A stretch of DNA of 60,877 nucleotides, from positions 1-60,877 of the forward strand of contig CACKTH010000001.1 of NCBI GenBank assembly GCA_902603045.1. Direction: 5' to 3'. Origin of the DNA: an uncultured Pelagibacteraceae bacterium. Its GTDB lineage: Bacteria > Pseudomonadota > Alphaproteobacteria > Pelagibacterales > Pelagibacteraceae. The notes beneath the pieces were generated by a model. The model made no database searches. It was not told where the DNA came from and saw only the letters and a list, made by a program, of their open reading frames with translations. Below, in pieces: positions 429 through 18,218 of the stretch (its first letter is position 1; each line of letters begins with the position of its first letter). The translations under genes were made by a program, and so were the position numbers.

Positions 429-1170
429 GATAATAATTTTTTTAGCAATAATTTTAACATCATGTGAAACTACTAATAAAAAAGTAATCACAAATAAAGA
501 TTTCAAAAATTATTCGAATGATGGATTTGCTCTCATATATAATAATGATATTTTCAAAAAACGAATAGTTTCAAAAAAAATAGATCAAAGATCATTAATT
601 ATTTTCAATAATAAACTTGAAAATGATACAGATATAAAAATAACAAATTTGTTAAATGAAAAGTATTTGATTGCTAAAGTAGGAAAAAAAACGAAATATC
701 CAATTTTTTATAATTCAGTAATTTCTGAAAGGATTGCGACTGAACTTGATATTGATCCTGATCAACCCTATGTACGTGTAGAAACAATAAATTCTAGTAA
801 TACTTTTGTTGCAAATAAAGCTAAAACATTTGATGAGGAAAAAAAAGTAGCTAATAAAGCTCCAGTAGACAGCATTTCAATCCAAAATATATCAATTGAA
901 AAAGATAATAATTCAAAAGTTGAAAAGGTGAAAAATACAAAATTTGAATATATAATTAAATTTGCCGATTTATTTTTTGAAGAATCTGCAATTACATTGA
1001 AAAAAAGACTTGAGGATGAGTACAATTTAAAAGACATAAATATCAAAAAAATGTCTAAAAATTTATATAGAGTTTACAAGGGTCCTTTTTATAATTTAGG
1101 ATCAATTAAAAATGTATATAATGAAATAGCTAACATAAATTTTGAAAATATTGAATTAATAAAATTATGA
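418..1170 (+). CDS. rlpA: RlpA-like lipoprotein with C-terminal SPOR domain
   Basis: Signal peptide with lipobox LTSC; C-terminal LYRVYKGPF SPOR-like motif; position between mltB and dacA. The ATG at 418 is preferred over the TTG at 412. Confidence 0.65.
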   Translation: MKPKIIIFLAIILTSCETTNKKVITNKDFKNYSNDGFALIYNNDIFKKRIVSKKIDQRSLIIFNNKLENDTDIKITNLLNEKYLIAKVGKKTKYPIFYNSVISERIATELDIDPDQPYVRVETINSSNTFVANKAKTFDEEKKVANKAPVDSISIQNISIEKDNNSKVEKVKNTKFEYIIKFADLFFEESAITLKKRLEDEYNLKDINIKKMSKNLYRVYKGPFYNLGSIKNVYNEIANINFENIELIKL

Positions 1171-2321
1171 AAATAAAAGCACTATTAATTTTTGTTCTAT
1201 CATTCTTAGTTATTAATAATATTTCTTATGCAAAATTTAACATAAATGCACGAACTGCAATATTACAAGACTATTTATCTGGTGAAATTTTATATGAAAA
1301 AAATTCTGATGAGAGAATTTTTCCTGCCTCTATGACAAAAATAATGACCTCAATCATTGCTTTTGATTTATTGAAAAGTGGCGAAATTACTTTAGATGAA
1401 AAATTTATCGTTTCTGAAAATGCCTGGAGATTATCCTCATCTGGTTATTCATCAATGTTTATAATGGTTGGAGATGAAGTTTCGGTAGAAGATTTATTAT
1501 TAGGTATAATTGTTGCTTCAGGTAATGATGCTTGTGTAGCTTTAGCAGAGGGTATTGCAGGAACTGAGGACGAGTTTGCATTACTAATGACTGAGAAAGC
1601 CCAAGAAATTGGGATGGAAAATACTAATTTTTCAAATTCGTCAGGGATTAATGATGATAATAATTATTCAACCGTTAGAGATATTTTAATTATGTCTAAT
1701 TATCTAATTAAAGAACATCCTAAATATTATGAGTATTTTAAAATTAAAGAATTTACATGGAGTAGGACAGGCGGGGATCCCATTACACAAGGAAATAGGA
1801 ACCCATTACTATATAAAAATATGGGTGTAGATGGAATTAAAACTGGATACCTTGGTTCAGAAAAATATTCACTTGCATCGTCTATATTAAGAAAAGAACG
1901 AAGATTAATAGCTGTTGCAAGTGGTTTTGAAACAAAAAATTCTAGATCAAAGCAATCACAAAAATTATTAACTTGGGGAATTACAAATTTTGATACAATA
2001 AAAATAAGTAATGATAACGAATATCTTTATGAACTAGATGTATGGCAGGGAAATAAGAAAAAAGTAAAAGTTAATACTAAAGATATAATTTATAAGACCA
2101 TTCCAAAAGCTAAAAAAAAATATATGAAAGTAAAGATTGTTTATGAAGGACCTATACAAGCACCGATAAAAAAGGGTGAAAAATTAGCAGAAATAAAAGT
2201 ATTATATAAAGATGAAGTAATATCTAATCATGACTTATTTTCTACAGAAAATATCAAACAGCAAAATGCAATATCAAGGTTGATAACTTCTATCAATTTT
2301 TTGATATGGGGCGATGTCTAA
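1167..2321 (+). CDS. dacA: D-alanyl-D-alanine carboxypeptidase (PBP5/6)
   Basis: PASMTK (SxxK), SGNDA (SxN) and KTG motifs. Confidence 0.93.
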   Translation: MKIKALLIFVLSFLVINNISYAKFNINARTAILQDYLSGEILYEKNSDERIFPASMTKIMTSIIAFDLLKSGEITLDEKFIVSENAWRLSSSGYSSMFIMVGDEVSVEDLLLGIIVASGNDACVALAEGIAGTEDEFALLMTEKAQEIGMENTNFSNSSGINDDNNYSTVRDILIMSNYLIKEHPKYYEYFKIKEFTWSRTGGDPITQGNRNPLLYKNMGVDGIKTGYLGSEKYSLASSILRKERRLIAVASGFETKNSRSKQSQKLLTWGITNFDTIKISNDNEYLYELDVWQGNKKKVKVNTKDIIYKTIPKAKKKYMKVKIVYEGPIQAPIKKGEKLAEIKVLYKDEVISNHDLFSTENIKQQNAISRLITSINFLIWGDV

Positions 2322-2928
2322 ATATCCAATTATTATATTTGAAGGCATTGAGGCCTCAGGAAAAACTACAAATTTTAAAATTGCTGCAAATTATTTAAAA
2401 AAGCGAAGAAAAAGTTTTATAAAATTAAGAGAGCCTGGTGGTTCAATTTTTTCAGAAAAAATAAGAAAATTGATTTTAAATAAGAAACTAAATTTAAATA
2501 ATAAAACCGATCTATTACTATTTTATGCTGGAAGATCAGAAAATATTGAGAAAATTATTAAAAAAAATTATAAAAAAAAAATAATACTAATTGATCGCTT
2601 CACAGATTCTACTATTGCGTATCAACATTATGGAATGAAAATTGATTTAAAAGTAATCAAAATGCTGAATAAGTTTATAATTGGAAATTTTAATCCTAAT
2701 ATAATTTTTTTAAGTACTGTAAATTCAAAAAATTTAAAAAAAAGGCTTAGAAATAGATCTAACTTAAATAGATATGATGAATTTAAACTTAAATTTTATA
2801 ACAAAGTTCAGAACGGGTATGAAAAAATATCAAGGAATAAGAGCAAATATATTAAAATTAATTCAAACACTAACACAATTAACGAAGTAAAAAAAATCAT
2901 AATAAATAAACTCGAGAAATTAATATAA
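2314..2928 (+). CDS. tmk: Thymidylate kinase
   Basis: EGIEASGKTT P-loop, REPGG, DRF..ST.AYQ. Confidence 0.95.
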   Translation: MSKYPIIIFEGIEASGKTTNFKIAANYLKKRRKSFIKLREPGGSIFSEKIRKLILNKKLNLNNKTDLLLFYAGRSENIEKIIKKNYKKKIILIDRFTDSTIAYQHYGMKIDLKVIKMLNKFIIGNFNPNIIFLSTVNSKNLKKRLRNRSNLNRYDEFKLKFYNKVQNGYEKISRNKSKYIKINSNTNTINEVKKIIINKLEKLI

Positions 2929-3798
2929 ATGTCTGAATATAAATTAATAGGACATGAAACATATTTAGAAAAATTTGTAACACTTTACGAAAATAATAAA
3001 CTTCCAAATAAAATTATATTATCTGGTAAAAAAGGTATTGGAAAATCATTACTTACAGAAAAATTTTTATTTAAAATTTTTAATTCTAGTAATGATAATG
3101 AACTAATAAAAAATAAATCTCATCCCAATGTTTTAAATATAAAAAAGAATAATGATAAAAAAAATATAGAAATTGATCAAATTAGAGAAATCATAAAGTT
3201 TACAAATCAATCCTCCTTTAATAATAAGTCAAGATTTATAATTCTCGATGATGTCGAATTTTTAAATATTAATTCATCAAATGCTTTATTGAAAAATTTA
3301 GAAGAACCAAATGATAATGTATATTTTATTTTAATTTTTAATTCAGAGAATTTTATAATAGATACTATAAAATCTCGATGTATAGAATTTAAATTAAGTA
3401 TTTCTACTGAAAATACCAAATTAATTGTCAATAATTATTTCAATGAAAAAATTTATGATCAAATAAATTCAAATTTGATAAATTATTACTCAACACCTTT
3501 TTTTTTAATATCCTTAATAAACTACATGAATGAATATGAATTATCAGTATCCAAAACCACTATTGATGATTTATTAGTTAATTTAATTAATAATAAGCAC
3601 TATGTTAAACAAGAATTTATAAGAGATAATTTAAATATGATTATTGAATTATTTTTTTATAAACATATAAACACAACAAAAAAATTGTCATATAAAGTTA
3701 AAGAATATTACTATTCAAAACTATCTAATGTAAAAAAATTTAATCTTGATTATGAAACTTTTTTTTTAGAATTTAAGGATAAATTACTAAGTGAATAA
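2929..3798 (+). CDS. holB: DNA polymerase III delta-prime subunit
   Basis: GKKGIGKS, NALLKNLEEP, TIKSRC; tmk-holB-metG synteny. Confidence 0.9.
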   Translation: MSEYKLIGHETYLEKFVTLYENNKLPNKIILSGKKGIGKSLLTEKFLFKIFNSSNDNELIKNKSHPNVLNIKKNNDKKNIEIDQIREIIKFTNQSSFNNKSRFIILDDVEFLNINSSNALLKNLEEPNDNVYFILIFNSENFIIDTIKSRCIEFKLSISTENTKLIVNNYFNEKIYDQINSNLINYYSTPFFLISLINYMNEYELSVSKTTIDDLLVNLINNKHYVKQEFIRDNLNMIIELFFYKHINTTKKLSYKVKEYYYSKLSNVKKFNLDYETFFLEFKDKLLSE

Positions 3799-5317
3799 AA
3801 ATTATTATATTACAACACCAATTTACTATCCTTCTGCAAAACCTCATATGGGACATGCATACTCAAGTATAATTGCAGATTTTTTTGCTCGTTTCAAAAA
3901 GATTGACGGTTTTAATGTATATTTTTTAACAGGCACGGATGAGCATGGTTTAAAAATACAAAGATCTGCTGAAAAGTTAAATAAAGATCCAAAATCATTT
4001 TGCGATGAAATAAGTAAAACATTCGAGGATTTGACTAAAAAATTAAACTTATCAAATACAGATTTTATAAGAACTACAGAAGATAGACATAAAGTGTCAG
4101 TCCAAAATTTATGGAATATTCTTGAAAAAAATAAGCAAATTTTTTTGTCTAAATATTCTGGTTGGTATTCTGTATCGGATGAGGCTTTTTATAATGAAGA
4201 TGAAGTTGAGGAAAAAGATGGTTCAAAAATTGCAAAATCATCTGGTTCAGCTGTTGAGTGGGTCGAAGAAGAATCTTTTTTTTTTAAACTTTCAGAATGG
4301 GAAAAACCTTTACTAGAATTTTATGAAAAAAATAGAAATTTTATTTTACCTGAAAGTAGGAGAAATGAGGTAATTAGCTTTGTCAAAAGTGGTCTAAAAG
4401 ATTTGTCTGTCAGCAGAAAGACTTTTTCTTGGGGTATAAAAGTACCAAATGATGAAAATCATGTTGTTTATGTATGGTTAGATGCATTAACAAATTATTT
4501 AAGCTCTTTAAAATATCCCGATGAAAAAAATGAATTGTATAAAAATTTTTGGCCAGCAGATTTACATATTATTGGTAAAGACATATTAAGATTTCATGCA
4601 ATTTATTGGCCAGCATTCTTATTAGCTGCAAAAATAGAGCCTCCCAAAAGAGTTTATGGGCATGGATGGATACTTACTGGTGATGAGAAAATGTCAAAAT
4701 CAAAAGGAAATATTTTAGATCCAATAGAAATCATAAATTCTTATGGTTTAGATCCATTAAGATATTATTTACTTAAAGAGGTTTCTTTTGGTAATGATGG
4801 CAATATTTCAGAGGAAAAACTAGAAAATTGTATTAATAGTGATTTGGCAAATAATTTTGGAAATCTCTGTCAAAGAGTACTTTCGTTTGCAGAAAAAAAT
4901 TGTTCCTCATTAATACCTGATCACAAATTTAATGACAAAGATTTAGAAATTTTAAAACCATTAAATGACTTAGATAAAATAAGATCATTTATAGATAATC
5001 AAGATATAAACCAATATATGAGTTTTATTGTTGATAAATTGTTTGCCGCAAATAAATATTTTAATGATCAAGAACCTTGGAAGAAGAAACACGATAGATT
5101 AAGGTTGAATACGATAGTTTATACTGCATTAGAATTAATTAGAAAAATTACTATTTTGCTTTATCCAGTAATACCGGAAACATCAATAAAAGTGCTAAAT
5201 GTTTTTAATGAAACAGAAAATTCTATTGATTTTGCATCAATCGATAATAATGAAATTTTAAAAAAAAATTTAAAAATAAATAAATTAAATATTTTGTTTA
5301 GAAAAATTGAAAAATGA
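3791..5317 (+). CDS. metG: Methionine-tRNA ligase
   Basis: TTPIYY, HMGH, TGTDEHG, KMSKS; GTG start. Confidence 0.97.
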   Translation: MNKNYYITTPIYYPSAKPHMGHAYSSIIADFFARFKKIDGFNVYFLTGTDEHGLKIQRSAEKLNKDPKSFCDEISKTFEDLTKKLNLSNTDFIRTTEDRHKVSVQNLWNILEKNKQIFLSKYSGWYSVSDEAFYNEDEVEEKDGSKIAKSSGSAVEWVEEESFFFKLSEWEKPLLEFYEKNRNFILPESRRNEVISFVKSGLKDLSVSRKTFSWGIKVPNDENHVVYVWLDALTNYLSSLKYPDEKNELYKNFWPADLHIIGKDILRFHAIYWPAFLLAAKIEPPKRVYGHGWILTGDEKMSKSKGNILDPIEIINSYGLDPLRYYLLKEVSFGNDGNISEEKLENCINSDLANNFGNLCQRVLSFAEKNCSSLIPDHKFNDKDLEILKPLNDLDKIRSFIDNQDINQYMSFIVDKLFAANKYFNDQEPWKKKHDRLRLNTIVYTALELIRKITILLYPVIPETSIKVLNVFNETENSIDFASIDNNEILKKNLKINKLNILFRKIEK

Positions 5318-6078
5318 TAGACTCACATTGTCATCTTGATCACGAGCCTCTTTATTCAAATATTAGTGATGTTATTAAACGTTCTAAGGAAAATGGATTA
5401 AAGAAAATTTTAACTATTTCAACCAATTCAAAAAGTTTTGAAAATATTAAAAAGATTATAAATCTTGATGATATAATTTATGGAAGTATAGGAATTCATC
5501 CCCATGAGTCTAGCAATGACAAGATGGATAAAAAATTCATTATTGAAAATGCTAATAAATTTAGAAAAATAATTGGAGTAGGGGAAACAGGATTAGATTT
5601 TTATTATGAAAATAGTCATAAAGACGATCAAATTAAAAGTTTTGAGACACATATAGAAGCCTCCATTGAACTTAAATATCCTTTGATAGTTCATTCTAGA
5701 TGTGCCGAAACAGAAACTTTTGATATTTTAAATAGATATAAAAATACTGATATTAAAATACTTATGCACTGTTTTACAGGTTCAAAAGAGTTTGCTAAAA
5801 AAATGATGACACTAAATGCATATTTTTCTGCAAGTGGAATAATAACTTTTAAAAATAGTATTGATCTTCAAGAAACATTTAAAATGATTGAAAATGATAA
5901 AATTTTAATTGAAACAGACAGTCCTTTTTTAGCACCTATACCAATGAGAGGTAAAAAAAATGAACCATCTTTTATTAAATATACATTGGAAAAACTTTCT
6001 GAATTAAAATCAATAACCTTTGATGAATTAGAGACTATTATAAGTAATAACTTTGAAAGATTATTTTTTCAAAAATGA
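5314..6078 (+). CDS. tatD: TatD family nuclease
   Basis: DSHCH, GIHPH, GETGLD, ETDSPFL. Confidence 0.93.
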   Translation: MIDSHCHLDHEPLYSNISDVIKRSKENGLKKILTISTNSKSFENIKKIINLDDIIYGSIGIHPHESSNDKMDKKFIIENANKFRKIIGVGETGLDFYYENSHKDDQIKSFETHIEASIELKYPLIVHSRCAETETFDILNRYKNTDIKILMHCFTGSKEFAKKMMTLNAYFSASGIITFKNSIDLQETFKMIENDKILIETDSPFLAPIPMRGKKNEPSFIKYTLEKLSELKSITFDELETIISNNFERLFFQK

Positions 6079-11503: not shown

Positions 11504-11578
11504 GGTCCCTTCGTCTATCGGTTAGGACACATGGTTTTCATCCATGAAAGAGGGGTTCGATTCCCCTAGGGACCGCCA
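11504..11578 (+). tRNA. tRNA-Glu(TTC)
   Basis: GGTCCCT/AGGGACC acceptor stem, anticodon arm CATGG-TT-TTC-AT-CCATG, GGTTCGATTCC, encoded CCA. Confidence 0.97.
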
Positions 11579-11580
11579 TA

Positions 11581-11832
11581 ATGAAATACTTTGTTTATTT
11601 AATCATATCCAAAAATAAACAAAAATATCTTAGCTACGTCGGGTATACTAATAATTTAAAGAAAAGATTGGCAAAACATAATGCTTCTAAAGGAGCAAAA
11701 TTTACTAGAGGTAGAAAATGGATATTAGCCTATAGTATGAGTTATGATTCAAAATCTAAGGCCATGAGTGAGGAATACAAACTTAAAAAAAACTATAAAC
11801 TTAGAAATAAAATAAAATCTAATTATTTATAA
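11581..11832 (+). CDS. Stand-alone GIY-YIG nuclease (UPF0213/YhbQ-like)
   Basis: YFVY...YVGYT..L.KR..HN..KGAKFTR...A...E..LK. Confidence 0.88.
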   Translation: MKYFVYLIISKNKQKYLSYVGYTNNLKKRLAKHNASKGAKFTRGRKWILAYSMSYDSKSKAMSEEYKLKKNYKLRNKIKSNYL

Positions 11833-12875: not shown

Positions 12876-13829
12876 TTATATTTTAATTTTATTTAATGCA
12901 TTATTTTTAAATATATTTGCCTCTCTAATATATCTTCTAACCATCTGAGTTGTTTTATGACCTGTCATAGCCATTATACTTCGCTCATCAGCACCAGAAT
13001 CAGCAGCTACTGTTGCAAAACCCGACCTTAAACTATGACCTGCAAAATTTTTGTTTTCGATACCTGCTAAATTTAAATAGTCTTTCATTAACAAAACTAC
13101 AGATTGGTCAGTTAATCTTTTGTCTGTTAATGATAAACCTTTAGAAAATCTTCTAAAAATAGGTCCAGACTTAATTTTAGAAATTTCTAACCATTTTTTT
13201 AGATTTGTAACAGGACAGTAAATTTTATTATCGAAGTAAGGTAGTCCTTTAGTCATTCCCTCACCGAATTGGTCAGTTTTTGATCTTTTAATAACGATTT
13301 TTAGGCCCTCAGGAACAAATTCTAAATCCTCATGATCAATTGAAATGAGCTCGGCTCTTCTAAAGCCTCCTCCAAAGCCAATTAAGATTATTGATTTATC
13401 TCTAAGTTTTTTTATTTCAAGAGTTTTTTGTTCATTTATTACATTAATAATTGATTTTAAATGATTGATTAATATAGGTTTTTTACCTTTCTGAATACTT
13501 CCTTTGACCCTTCTTATTCCCATTAAATTTTCAACGATAATTGGATGCTTTGTGTCTAGATAATGCCCTTTAAGTTTATGAACCATGCTTATTGATACCA
13601 ATCTACGTCTTAAAGTGCTTATTTTTGAGTTTTTAGATAGATGGGTTAGGTATAAGGAAACTATTTTTGGCTCTGTTGGTAATGAATTTAATCTATGCTT
13701 AGCACAAAAAGCTCCGAAATCTTTAAAGTCAGATTTATAAGCTCTTAACGTATTATTAGCCTTTGAACTTTTAAGGTTATTTAAAGTTGCCTCATGAAGC
13801 GATTTTAGGTCTGTTGTCAGTTCATTCAT
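12876..13829 (-). CDS. Cre-like site-specific tyrosine recombinase
   Basis: N-terminal core-binding domain (NTLRAY..D); full catalytic set R (GFRRAEL), K (RSKTDQ), HxxR (HSLR), H (MTGH), Y (RRY). Confidence 0.93.
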   Translation of the reverse strand: MNELTTDLKSLHEATLNNLKSSKANNTLRAYKSDFKDFGAFCAKHRLNSLPTEPKIVSLYLTHLSKNSKISTLRRRLVSISMVHKLKGHYLDTKHPIIVENLMGIRRVKGSIQKGKKPILINHLKSIINVINEQKTLEIKKLRDKSIILIGFGGGFRRAELISIDHEDLEFVPEGLKIVIKRSKTDQFGEGMTKGLPYFDNKIYCPVTNLKKWLEISKIKSGPIFRRFSKGLSLTDKRLTDQSVVLLMKDYLNLAGIENKNFAGHSLRSGFATVAADSGADERSIMAMTGHKTTQMVRRYIREANIFKNNALNKIKI

Positions 13830-13832
13830 ATA

Positions 13833-13867
13833 ATTACTATTGATAACAATTAATTATCGTTAGTAAT
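13833..13867. other. Candidate recombination site (dif/lox-like): ATTACTATTGATAA-CAATTAA-TTATCGTTAGTAAT
   Basis: 14-bp inverted arms matching at 12/14 positions around an asymmetric 7-bp spacer, 3 bp upstream of the recombinase ATG; ATAA-spacer-TTAT core as in dif-type sites. Confidence 0.7.
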
Positions 13868-13891
13868 ATATCAAGTGATTTTAAATGTCAA
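13863..13891 (-). promoter_or_regulatory. Sigma70-type promoter of the recombinase
   Basis: Minus strand TTGACA (13891-13886), 17 bp, TATTAC (13868-13863); the -10 overlaps the right palindrome arm. Confidence 0.55.
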
Positions 13892-14092: not shown

Positions 14093-14180
14093 TTTATTAA
14101 CGCTATCCACAGCTGTTAAAAACCCATAATTATCAACTATAAAGTGATACTAATATAATTTGCACTGTGATAATCTAGTA

Positions 14181-14373
14181 AATGAATTAAGAGGCAACTC
14201 TTAACTGACCATCTGGGGAAAAATCGAGAGATTCAAGCCCAGAGGGCAGAAAACCACGCAGAGTAGCGCTAAAATTGCGAGGTGGAAGGCATGGCGGTAG
14301 CGCATACAACGACGTGCCAAAAAACTACTGATCTTTGTACCTGAAAAGGTGCAGAGATACAGGGTTTTTTTTT
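14181..14373 (+). ncRNA. Highly structured marine-type ncRNA (IMES-2-like; family assignment from memory, unverified)
   Basis: About 47% GC island with five hairpins: TTAAGAG-GCAA-CTCTTAA; TCTGGG..AATC-GAGA-GATT..CCCAGA; CCACGCA..TGC..GTGG; GGCATG..CGTGCC; ATCTTTGTACCT-GAAA-AGGTGCAGAGAT. Three GNRA tetraloops; ends in a T9 tract. Confidence 0.85.
14328..14373 (+). terminator. Intrinsic terminator closing the structured RNA
   Basis: 12-bp stem (with G-U pairs) capped by GAAA, extended by CTG/CAG, followed by 9 T. Confidence 0.75.
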
Positions 14374-16929: not shown

Positions 16930-18218
16930 TAAAAAAGTCTTAATAATACTGGGTTTTTAATAATATTTAAATTTGATTTAAAAGATTTAATACATTTCTG
17001 GTAATCCTTTTCATAAGATTTGTGAGTTATAATTACAATAGATGCAGTTTTGTTTTTATTATTTGGTATTTGTATTAATCGTTGTACAGAAATTTTATGT
17101 TTAGCAAATTTATTAGTGATTTCAGATAGAACACCAGGTTTATCTTTAACTTCAAGTCTAATATATAAAGCATTAGAATAATTATCTGTATTATATATTA
17201 AAGGAGATTTTCTTTTATTTTCAGAAATCCCAAAAGGGTATTTGATATTTCCACGTAAAATTGACAAAAGATCAGACATTAAAGCAGACGATGTTGGACC
17301 AGGTCCAGCCCCTTCTCCTTGTAAAACACTCTCCCCTACTGGATTACCTTCAATTATAACGGCATTCATAACACCATTAACATTTGCGATGTAAGTATTT
17401 TTTTTAATTAAACATGGATGAACTCTTTCAAATAATTTATTATTAACAATTTCTGTTATACCCAATAATTTAATTTTATAATTTAATTGATTTGCAATTT
17501 CTAAATCCTTATATTCTATATTTTCAATACCCTCCATTAAACATTTTGAATTTGAAACTTTATTATTAAAAGCTAAAGCAGAAAGAATTTTAACTTTGGC
17601 TAAAGCATCGTAACCATTTAAATCTAATTTTGGATTACCAGGTTCAGCATAACCTAATAGTTGAGCTTTTTTTAATACATTTGAAAAGCCTGACTTAGTT
17701 TCTTCCATTTCAGATAATATATAATTACAAGTACCATTTAATATTCCATATACTTTACTTATCTTATTAGTTGCTAACCCTTCTTTAATAGTTCTTAATA
17801 CTGGGATTCCACCTCCTACTGACGCTTCAAATTCTAAGTTAACTTTATTTTTTTCAGCAAGTTTAGAAAGGTTATTACCGTGTTTAGAAATTAATGCCTT
17901 ATTAGGAGTTACAACATGAATTTTATTCTTAAGTGCAAATTCTACAATTTTTTTAGATATACCATCAGATTGACCAATAGCCTCAATTAAAATATCAATT
18001 TTATTATTTTTAAAAATTTTAAAGGGATCTTTATAAAATATTTTCTTATTAATTCTAAATTTTCTTTTTTTATTAATATTTTTAGCTGAAATTGCAGAAA
18101 CAGAGATAATTTTTCCAGTTTTTTTTAGAATATCTCTTTTTTTTGTATTTAATTCATTATAGAGATAATTACCAATCTGCCCTAATCCAACAATTGCTAT
18201 ATTAAGCTTTTTAGTCAT
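16929..18218 (-). CDS. hom: Homoserine dehydrogenase with ACT domain
   Basis: GLGQIG, EASVGGGIP, GILNGT, GAGPGPTSSA; alternative ATG at 18227. Confidence 0.95.
   Translation of the reverse strand: MTKKLNIAIVGLGQIGNYLYNELNTKKRDILKKTGKIISVSAISAKNINKKRKFRINKKIFYKDPFKIFKNNKIDILIEAIGQSDGISKKIVEFALKNKIHVVTPNKALISKHGNNLSKLAEKNKVNLEFEASVGGGIPVLRTIKEGLATNKISKVYGILNGTCNYILSEMEETKSGFSNVLKKAQLLGYAEPGNPKLDLNGYDALAKVKILSALAFNNKVSNSKCLMEGIENIEYKDLEIANQLNYKIKLLGITEIVNNKLFERVHPCLIKKNTYIANVNGVMNAVIIEGNPVGESVLQGEGAGPGPTSSALMSDLLSILRGNIKYPFGISENKRKSPLIYNTDNYSNALYIRLEVKDKPGVLSEITNKFAKHKISVQRLIQIPNNKNKTASIVIITHKSYEKDYQKCIKSFKSNLNIIKNPVLLRLF

What the first reader, a model, noticed from the sequence alone, without database searches (positions are those of the whole stretch)
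12876..13891. Candidate single-recombinase chromosome dimer resolution system: Cre-like recombinase plus adjacent GATAA-N7-TTATC site
Seen: an intact 317-aa tyrosine recombinase (R-K-HxxR-H-Y, Cre-like RSKTDQ loop) with no phage or plasmid genes nearby. Three bp upstream of its ATG lies ATTACTATTGATAA-caattaa-TTATCGTTAGTAAT: near-symmetric 14-bp arms (12/14) with an asymmetric 7-bp spacer. I saw only one copy in the window. Known: E. coli dif has an ATAA-N6-TTAT core with distinct XerC and XerD arms. Single-recombinase systems (XerS/difSL, XerH/difH) use one enzyme, and difSL lies beside xerS. From memory, the Rhizobium IntA att site has a similar GATAA-N7-TTATC core. Inference: a domesticated Cre/IntA-like enzyme may replace XerCD in this streamlined lineage and act on this site. 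It would also be a possible new lox-type tool.
Basis: partly seen in the sequence, partly recalled or inferred. Interest (0 to 1): 0.82.

Follow-up and report, generated by a model that had tools for sequence, protein, structure and literature searches.

The report
SAR11 plasmid-type chromosome dimer resolver
This family of ocean bacteria shows no XerC/XerD genes in the genomes searched and instead keeps one Cre-shaped recombinase gene beside a single palindromic site where the chromosome's direction-giving motifs converge; the pair likely unlinks fused sister chromosomes, and many of the family's phages carry altered copies of the site.

Summary
Observation confirmed; interpretation supported by genomics, untested at the bench. 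The palindrome alone is ordinary (88 similar hits in the 807-kb assembly). Its context is not. The gene is in 140 of 151 family genomes, nearly always single-copy, and its GATAA-N7-TTATC site lies just upstream in 71 of 71 loci. No XerC/XerD was found (best 89.5 bits), while 18 of 20 sister-family genomes have both. In two of those, a canonical dif-like site lies beside the same genes. KOPS-like GRGNAGGG motifs switch strand across the site in 8 of 8 genomes, the GC-skew peak is within 3 kb in both genomes tested, and FtsK keeps its gamma domain. The enzyme folds like Cre and belongs to a plasmid IntA/TnpS-like family. Best reading: a plasmid-type resolvase replaced XerCD/dif in place (0.87). 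Two enzyme/arm types exist and cross genus lines. Pelagiphage-like contigs copy the arms, often both types in tandem, mostly with non-host spacers; four tests found no integration. The scan reported this module before on other genomes (8 notes). Nine paper searches found no description of it.

The parts
12876..13829 (-). Tyrosine recombinase, 317 aa, Cre-like fold, IntA/TnpS-like plasmid family, 'long' type
13833..13867 (-). Candidate dif site: two 14-bp arms around a 7-bp spacer (TTAATTG on the gene strand), core GATAA-N7-TTATC
13863..13891 (-). Inferred promoter of the recombinase gene: TTGACA at 13891-13886, 17 nt, then a TA-starting hexamer overlapping the outer arm, so bound enzyme would repress its own gene
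   Evidence: TTGAC columns conserved in 64-69 of 71 loci and 103 of 103 metagenome loci; not listed by the consensus scan; no transcription start mapped
5576..5583 (+). KOPS-like GRGNAGGG motif pointing towards the site (nearest on the left)
17310..17317 (-). KOPS-like GRGNAGGG motif pointing towards the site (nearest on the right; two more at about 57,015 and 60,488 point the same way)
1167..6078 (+). dacA-tmk-metG-tatD block; its orthologues lie 4.6-8.9 kb from a canonical dif-like site in two sister-family genomes (context, not part of the module)

Best explanation
This gene and the palindrome in front of it are likely the chromosome dimer resolution system of this bacterial family (inferred to be Pelagibacteraceae, SAR11): one Cre-shaped recombinase of plasmid ancestry that likely replaced XerCD/dif at the same chromosomal place. 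Shown: core, single-copy gene with intact catalytic residues; single-copy conserved site; no XerC/XerD in the genomes searched; convergence of KOPS-like motifs and GC skew on the site; FtsK with a gamma domain. Inferred: one enzyme molecule binds each arm; four molecules pair the two sister copies of the site in a dimer; cleavage at the edges of the 7-bp spacer and two strand exchanges give monomers; FtsK, guided by GRGNAGGG, brings the sister sites together at the septum so that products are unlinked, as for engineered Cre/loxP at the E. coli terminus, probably without needing to activate the enzyme; and the bound enzyme covers its own promoter and limits its own level.
For: Core gene: 140 of 151 genomes; the 11 misses are drafts of 20-70 contigs. 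Site upstream in 71 of 71 loci with GATAA and TTATC invariant, and the recombinase follows the site in 111 of 111 metagenome loci. All 44 single-contig genomes have it beside the gene (39 strict pattern; 5 relaxed). XerD model: 0 of 151 over cut-off, best 89.5 bits, which is this gene. XerC model: family best 75 bits, whereas 18 of 20 sister-family genomes have two full hits of 260-318 bits and 5 of 5 tested lack this gene. In G551 and G548 a dif-like site sits within 0.4 kb of the local GC-skew peak and 4.6-8.9 kb from orthologues of the window's dacA, tmk, metG and tatD. The motif switch brackets the site in 8 of 8 genomes of 4 genera, within 0.16-2.9% of the chromosome. In G054, 52 of 59 motifs face the site, including 21 of 24 antisense to genes, ranking first of 252 same-letter arrangements. 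GC-skew peak 2.8 kb (G054) and 1.1 kb (G014) away. FtsK in 4 of 4 complete relatives, gamma domain intact. Fold closest to Cre. The related IntA recombines a site with the same core (PMC4928290). Cre/loxP can replace XerCD/dif in E. coli given KOPS-guided FtsK (PMC2680272).
Against: No activity or phenotype tested. Genomes share ancestry and gene order, so 8 of 8 is not 8 independent events. The motif was picked in G054 (site region excluded), and there the switch ties with a second interval 33-38 kb away. Skews corrected for gene orientation were noisy in G054 (peaks at 863 and 1,089 kb; intergenic skew uninformative). G045 has the site only 0.14 of the chromosome from dnaA, though motifs still converge on it. 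The gene is in pieces in G078, G103, G041 and G036, either sequence error or tolerated loss. A 2026 preprint says Arctic Pelagibacterales genomes have XerC and XerD, by automated annotation. FtsK was not found in the 61%-complete G000. The overlap with the promoter could explain arm conservation by itself.
Confidence: 0.87

Rival explanations
1. The palindrome is only an autoregulatory operator; the enzyme acts elsewhere (for example on variable islands) or non-catalytically, and lies near the terminus by inherited gene order.
For: The site overlaps the inferred promoter and ends within a few bases of the ATG in most loci. Plasmid relatives also have the site next to their own gene. The locus borders variable glycosyltransferase genes.
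Against: No second copy to recombine with in single-contig genomes. The asymmetric spacer is conserved, which an operator would not need. Motif polarity flips within 2-9 kb around the site in 4 genomes. It sits where the sister family keeps a dif-like site. XerCD is missing exactly where this gene is present.
Confidence: 0.07
2. It is a stranded plasmid or transposon resolvase module (an IntA/TnpS-like remnant, or a landing pad for mobile elements) with no housekeeping role.
For: Nearest relatives are plasmid-borne and patchy in other families of the class (16 of 397 genomes). The gene tree rejects genus monophyly for g1, g4 and g6. Phages carry site copies.
Against: Kept in 140 of 151 streamlined genomes with 76 invariant residues. 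One clade, 100/99 support. No cargo and no second att site. No phage-host junction found.
Confidence: 0.04
3. The module acts at the terminus but mainly in another job, such as stepwise decatenation of sister chromosomes with FtsK, rather than dimer resolution.
For: All the positional evidence fits equally. XerCD-dif with FtsK can decatenate when topoisomerase IV is absent (PMC2680272 passage).
Against: Not exclusive of the best reading; dimer resolution is the conserved job of dif systems. Topoisomerase IV was not checked here.
Confidence: 0.02

Closest known systems
XerS/difSL (streptococci, lactococci), XerH/difH (Campylobacter, Helicobacter), XerL/dif (Legionellales)
   Same: One recombinase, near-symmetric site at the terminus, no XerC/XerD; difSL and difH can lie beside their gene (PMC2731167). 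XerL also filled a 'no dif/Xer' gap (bioRxiv 2021.09.12.459815).
   Different: Not these enzymes: XerS model 42.6 bits against a cut-off of 267; fold nearer Cre (TM 0.68-0.81) than XerH (0.54-0.63). Spacer is 7 bp, against 6 bp in proteobacterial dif and difH and 4 bp in the Legionella site. XerL was not compared by sequence.
IntA/attA of Rhizobium etli plasmid p42a
   Same: Same site core and 7-bp spacer; the short-type SAR11 arms TTCCGATAA/TTATCGGAA match the attA arms; site just upstream of the gene.
   Different: 25% identity, 84 bits, far apart in the tree. IntA is plasmid-borne and cointegrates plasmids; this gene is chromosomal, core and at the terminus.
TnpS of Tn4651 (plasmid pWW0)
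   Same: 29% identity, 132 bits over the whole length, the nearest studied protein compared here; described as Cre-related (PMC4337579).
   Different: TnpS resolves transposon cointegrates with the helper TnpT. The pWW0 gap holds AATAA-N7-TTATT, not GATAA-N7-TTATC. No TnpT-like neighbour here. I assigned tnpS/tnpT by position and annotation.
Cre/loxP of phage P1, including engineered dif::loxP in E. coli
   Same: Best structural match; one enzyme, two long arms, asymmetric spacer; Cre can stand in for XerCD when FtsK translocation is KOPS-guided (PMC2680272).
   Different: 16-19% identity in the fold search; 14+7+14 rather than 13+8+13; here the arrangement is natural and family-wide.
IMEX elements (CTXphi, TLCphi, LME-1)
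   Same: Mobile elements without their own recombinase that carry a copy of the host site.
   Different: Here they are tailed phages; spacers mostly differ from the host's; no integrated copy was found.

Membership tests
Chromosome dimer resolution (dif-type) system | Non-coding, AT-rich palindromic site of about 30 bp | tested here: met
Chromosome dimer resolution (dif-type) system | One copy per chromosome | tested here: met
   44 of 44 single-contig genomes; one weak extra match with a broken core in G068
Chromosome dimer resolution (dif-type) system | At the terminus where KOPS-like motifs converge | tested here: met
   8 of 8 genomes; GC-skew peak within 3 kb in 2 of 2; G045 lopsided against dnaA
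Chromosome dimer resolution (dif-type) system | Conserved chromosomal tyrosine recombinase with intact active site | tested here: met
Chromosome dimer resolution (dif-type) system | FtsK with gamma domain present | tested here: met
   4 of 4 complete relatives; not found in incomplete G000
Chromosome dimer resolution (dif-type) system | Recombination at the site and a recA-dependent defect on loss | not testable with these tools
   needs bench work
XerC/XerD | Two paralogues passing or near TIGR02224/TIGR02225 cut-offs; dif with 6-bp centre and distinct arms | tested here: not met
   60 and 68 bits against 335 and 330; no dif-pattern match in G054
XerS / XerH | Sequence family and difSL/difH site | tested here: not met
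   XerS 42.6 bits against 267; XerH ranks below Cre in the fold search; site differs
XerL | Homology to Legionella XerL; 10-bp arms, 4-bp centre | tested here: inconclusive
   Site layout differs; protein not compared
IntA/TnpS-like (Cre-related) plasmid recombinases | Full-length homology and Cre-like fold | tested here: met
IntA/TnpS-like (Cre-related) plasmid recombinases | Adjacent GATAA-N7-TTATC site | tested here: met
   71 of 71 family loci; 12 of 26 outside loci not selected by the site
IntA/TnpS-like (Cre-related) plasmid recombinases | Borne on a plasmid or transposon | tested here: not met
   Chromosomal core gene
IMEX (for the phage copies) | Carries host-site mimic and no own copy of this recombinase | tested here: met
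   HTVC100P annotated without integrase
IMEX (for the phage copies) | Found integrated at the host site | tested here: inconclusive
   None found; low power for rare lysogens

The most novel reading that the evidence does not exclude
SAR11 replaced XerCD/dif in place with a plasmid resolvase and now swaps two specificity types of it across genera, while abundant pelagiphages classed as strictly lytic borrow the host enzyme: they keep its binding arms for both types side by side but change the spacer, so the enzyme would resolve or circularise phage genomes without inserting them into the chromosome.
Probability: 0.3. Interest if true: 0.92.

Novelty: new variant of a known kind. Interest (0 to 1): 0.8.

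Why it matters
Carnoy and Roten (PMC2731167) list Pelagibacter ubique as lacking dif/Xer, ask how such cells unlink chromosomes, and note no evidence for a natural Cre/lox-like substitute. This supplies a specific, testable one for a dominant ocean lineage: a natural counterpart of the engineered dif::loxP experiment, from an enzyme lineage outside the known Xer groups. It gives a precise terminus marker and a KOPS candidate for SAR11, two natural enzyme/arm pairs for studying specificity, and an unreported link to pelagiphages currently described as strictly lytic.

Tried and rejected
Symmetry as evidence by itself: rejected. XerC/XerD elsewhere in the family: not found; other integrase hits are sporadic and phage-like. 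hemE as an origin marker works in most genera but not g6, where it lies near the site. Gene-orientation-corrected and intergenic skews were too noisy to place the terminus. Phage integration at the site: no recombinase within 5 kb of 47 terL loci in GTDB genomes, and the only 2 with a site are phage contigs in unrelated bins; 0 of 94 upstream flanks of metagenome host loci matched my phage set; no joints at the site in 8 runs laid as contigs. Phage site at genome ends: no enrichment at contig ends, 8 of 44 within 400 bp against 5.5 expected. Link between site and absence of phage integrase: my test recovered only one integrase query and no hits, so inconclusive. The reverse tandem count (long arm beside short sites) was dropped because short sites with AT flanks score 12/14 as long arms. 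The Methylophilales phage Venkman match is not a site. The canonical dif pattern (recalled) is weak: G549 and G550 matches are doubtful and controls gave 0-4 hits. The FtsK-gamma/recombinase complex prediction was never run because the queue was full, so physical contact is untested. RNA contigs cannot show a transcription start.

Full report
Observation. The ORF is at 12876-13829 on the minus strand, 317 aa, with Pfam Phage_integrase and SAM-like domains. The site spans 13833-13867: arms of 14 bp matching at 12 positions, a 7-bp spacer, 3 bp before the ATG. Such symmetry is common in this AT-rich assembly: 88 hits in 807 kb, some overlapping, and 6 of 642 gene starts. The case rests on comparison, not on symmetry. 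No tool names the organism. I infer Pelagibacteraceae (SAR11) from relatives of 0.9-1.6 Mb, marine runs and the site shared with Pelagibacter phages.

A core gene. G000 is 61% complete, so I used relatives. The protein matches in 140 of 151 family genomes at least 90% complete plus G000, almost always once, at about 53-95% identity over full length. The 11 misses are drafts of 20-70 contigs, and they also lack the strict site pattern and any XerD-model hit. In G078, G103, G041 and G036 the gene is in pieces.

A conserved site. Of 92 loci given to, 72 held the orthologue (71 genomes; 29 are close relatives at 91% or more). All 71 have one GATAA-N7-TTATC core just upstream. There are two arm types: 55 'long' (14-bp arms as here, protein 317-326 aa) and 16 'short' (TTCCGATAA arms, protein 301-317 aa). 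The change is on both arms. It goes with loss of a 12-residue hairpin and Q242 to K at the start of the following helix, 55 of 55 against 16 of 16. That this region reads the outer arm is my inference from recalled Cre structures. Spacers are TTAATTG (33) or TTAATGG (31) in 64 of 71. In 114 metagenome loci (scan stopped at 9 of 64 parts), those two spacers make up 99, the recombinase follows in 111 of 111 with enough sequence, and TTGAC precedes in 103 of 103. All 44 single-contig genomes have the site beside the gene: 39 by a strict pattern with no second copy and 5 by a relaxed one.

No XerCD, and a built-in control. The XerD model passes its cut-off in 0 of 151 genomes; the best score, 89.5 bits, is this gene. 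Across the order, the XerC model gives at most 75 bits in this family (100 genomes plus G000), but two full hits of 260-318 bits in 18 of 20 genomes of the sister family f184. Five of five f184 genomes tested lack this gene. A recalled dif pattern hits G551 exactly and G548 with one mismatch. At both, the local GC-skew peak is within 0.4 kb, the nearby KOPS-like motifs face the site, and orthologues of the window's dacA, tmk, metG and tatD lie 4.6-8.9 kb away. In the window tatD starts 8.5 kb from the site. This suggests replacement in place; it rests on two genomes. Against this, a 2026 preprint states that Arctic Pelagibacterales genomes have XerC and XerD, from Prokka-based annotation (passages). 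I think that is a label given to this gene, but I could not check their genomes.

Terminus. In whole G054, cumulative GC skew peaks at 995,999, TA skew bottoms at 1,002,175 and gene orientation turns at 997,066; the site is at 998,840. Those signals are largely gene orientation, and corrected skews were noisy. A motif search that left out 120 kb each side of the site found GAGNAGGG as the top strongly polarised word; with the classical GGGNAGGG it gives GRGNAGGG. In G054, 52 of 59 copies face the site, 21 of 24 of them antisense to genes, first of 252 same-letter arrangements (partly circular, as the motif came from this genome). The inward-facing pair around the site: G054 993,996/1,002,586 (tied with 1,031,761/1,037,093); G014 about 490/494 kb, 280 kb examined, GC peak 493,446, site 492,374; G020 1,012,055/1,014,071; G006 771,526/775,734; G013 91,467/125,207; G045 658,488/691,041; G059 552,578/572,895; G091 72,625/83,065. 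That is 8 of 8 examined; six were read from lists by eye. In the window 4 of 4 motifs face the site. The site is 0.39-0.50 of the chromosome from dnaA in 43 of 44 genomes, using rounded sizes; G045 gives 0.14. FtsK is present in 4 of 4 complete relatives, with a gamma domain.

What the enzyme is. The model is confident (pLDDT 91.4) and all listed matches down to rank 31 are Cre or its variants (TM 0.68-0.81), ahead of XerH (0.54-0.63). By sequence the nearest listed relatives are plasmid integrases at 35-44%. TnpS gives 29% and 132 bits, IntA 25% and 84 bits. The IntA attA sequence printed in PMC4928290 has the short-type arms and a 7-bp centre. The same core lies near 12 of 26 outside homologues not chosen by site. 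Outside the family, homologues are patchy, 16 of 397 genomes of the class. The 38 family rows in the tree form one clade, 100/99 (33 of 71 family rows and 4 fused or partial outside rows left out). On a 24-row subset the data reject one clade for genera g1, g4 and g6 (p 2e-105, 3e-4, 8e-4; quick tree, tested after I had seen a tree). This points to allele exchange, or to chimeric bins.

Mechanism. Binding, a tetramer on paired sister sites, exchange across the 7-bp spacer and autorepression are inferred from the family. The FtsK role is inferred from E. coli, where Cre/loxP replaces XerCD/dif, needs no activation, but depends on KOPS-guided translocation (PMC2680272). Direct FtsK contact is untested; the complex prediction could not be run.

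Phage copies. A scan of viral contigs for the host site gave 19 contigs, none with the recombinase, all phage fragments with the site upstream of terL or next to a terS-like gene. Only 3 of the 32 long-arm phage copies have a main host spacer; CTTATGA and TTTATGA dominate and occur in 0 of 114 host loci. None of the 44 short-arm copies has TTAATGG, the spacer of 13 of 16 short-type hosts; 8 have TTAATTG. A perfect short arm lies beside the long site in 27 of 44 loci and in 0 of 55 long-type hosts. Unselected by site, 11 of 51 terL loci with 1.3 kb upstream have one, against 0 of 39 control stretches (80 best loci of 591). Among 13 cultured phage regions, 4 pass the arm test (HTVC100P, HTVC035P, HTVC106P, Greip; all four include a 6-bp-spacer form); seven, including HTVC010P, show only weak traces; integrase-bearing HTVC028P and Venkman show none (only HTVC100P fetched whole). 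Du et al. call the integrase-less HTVC010P-type subgroup strictly lytic and report only tRNA integration sites (PMC8477408). I found no integration. Self-resolution of phage DNA, rare IMEX-like integration and a decoy or operator role all remain open.

Literature seen. Passages only: PMC2731167, PMC4928290, PMC3025954 (no mention of Pelagibacter), PMC11876622, PMC10504331, PMC4337579, PMC2680272, PMC8138268 (no mention of Pelagibacter, IntA or TnpS), bioRxiv 2026.10.07.757358. Parts 1-3 of 6 of bioRxiv 2021.09.12.459815. Passages, abstract and section 19 of PMC8477408. No supplements were read; tables of screened Cre-like candidates could list this enzyme. Searches listed no paper describing this system; the library lacks most subscription journals. 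Earlier scan notes reach the same reading on other genomes; they were read after my own tests and are not counted as support. A word search for notes on the phage spacers found none.

Verdict. A real, family-wide single-recombinase terminus module from an enzyme lineage outside the known Xer groups. It works like XerS/XerH/XerL by every genomic test I could run but is not a member of XerCD, XerS or XerH. New variant of a known kind; interest 0.8.

Noticed in passing
window 14180-14320 (+): IMES-2 RNA motif (Rfam RF02035, 163 bits) between the site and the methylguanine-repair gene; well covered by contigs in marine runs.
   Followed up: no
L192-L210, L246-L408, L233-L244: Pelagiphage-like contigs and some cultured pelagiphages carry the host arms near terL, often both arm types in tandem, with changed or 6-bp spacers.
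   Followed up: yes
L055, L060-L064, L067, L073-L081 against L002-L054: Two enzyme/arm types: a 12-residue hairpin loss and Q242K go with TTCC-type arms; both types occur within genera g1, g4 and g6.
   Followed up: partly
G054:C1 341-424 kb: The origin-side switch of GRGNAGGG falls at 422-424 kb, whereas skew minima and hemE lie at 308-368 kb and dnaA at 399 kb; oriC is not pinned down.
   Followed up: no
G045:C1: Motif polarity gives very unequal arms (about 0.3 and 1.1 Mb), suggesting a large inversion or misassembly; motifs still converge on the site.
   Followed up: no
G013, G006, G023 (genus g6): hemE lies 55-60 kb from the site rather than near dnaA, and scores below the family cut-off.
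   Followed up: no
L246-L365, class 'other': Many unrelated viral contigs, some GC-rich, carry perfect TTCCGATAA-N7-TTATCGGA sites with no matching recombinase in the stretch held, so borrowing IntA-family sites may be wider than SAR11 phages.
   Followed up: no
window 11504-11832: tRNA-Glu and an 83-aa GIY-YIG protein gene 1.0-1.4 kb beyond the recombinase's 3' end; glycosyltransferase genes of varying kind border the recombinase in most relatives.
   Followed up: no
window 13847-13853 and orthologues: The spacer is nearly fixed across the family (two forms in 64 of 71 loci) although plasmid relatives vary it freely; unexplained, perhaps a promoter or leader constraint.
   Followed up: partly
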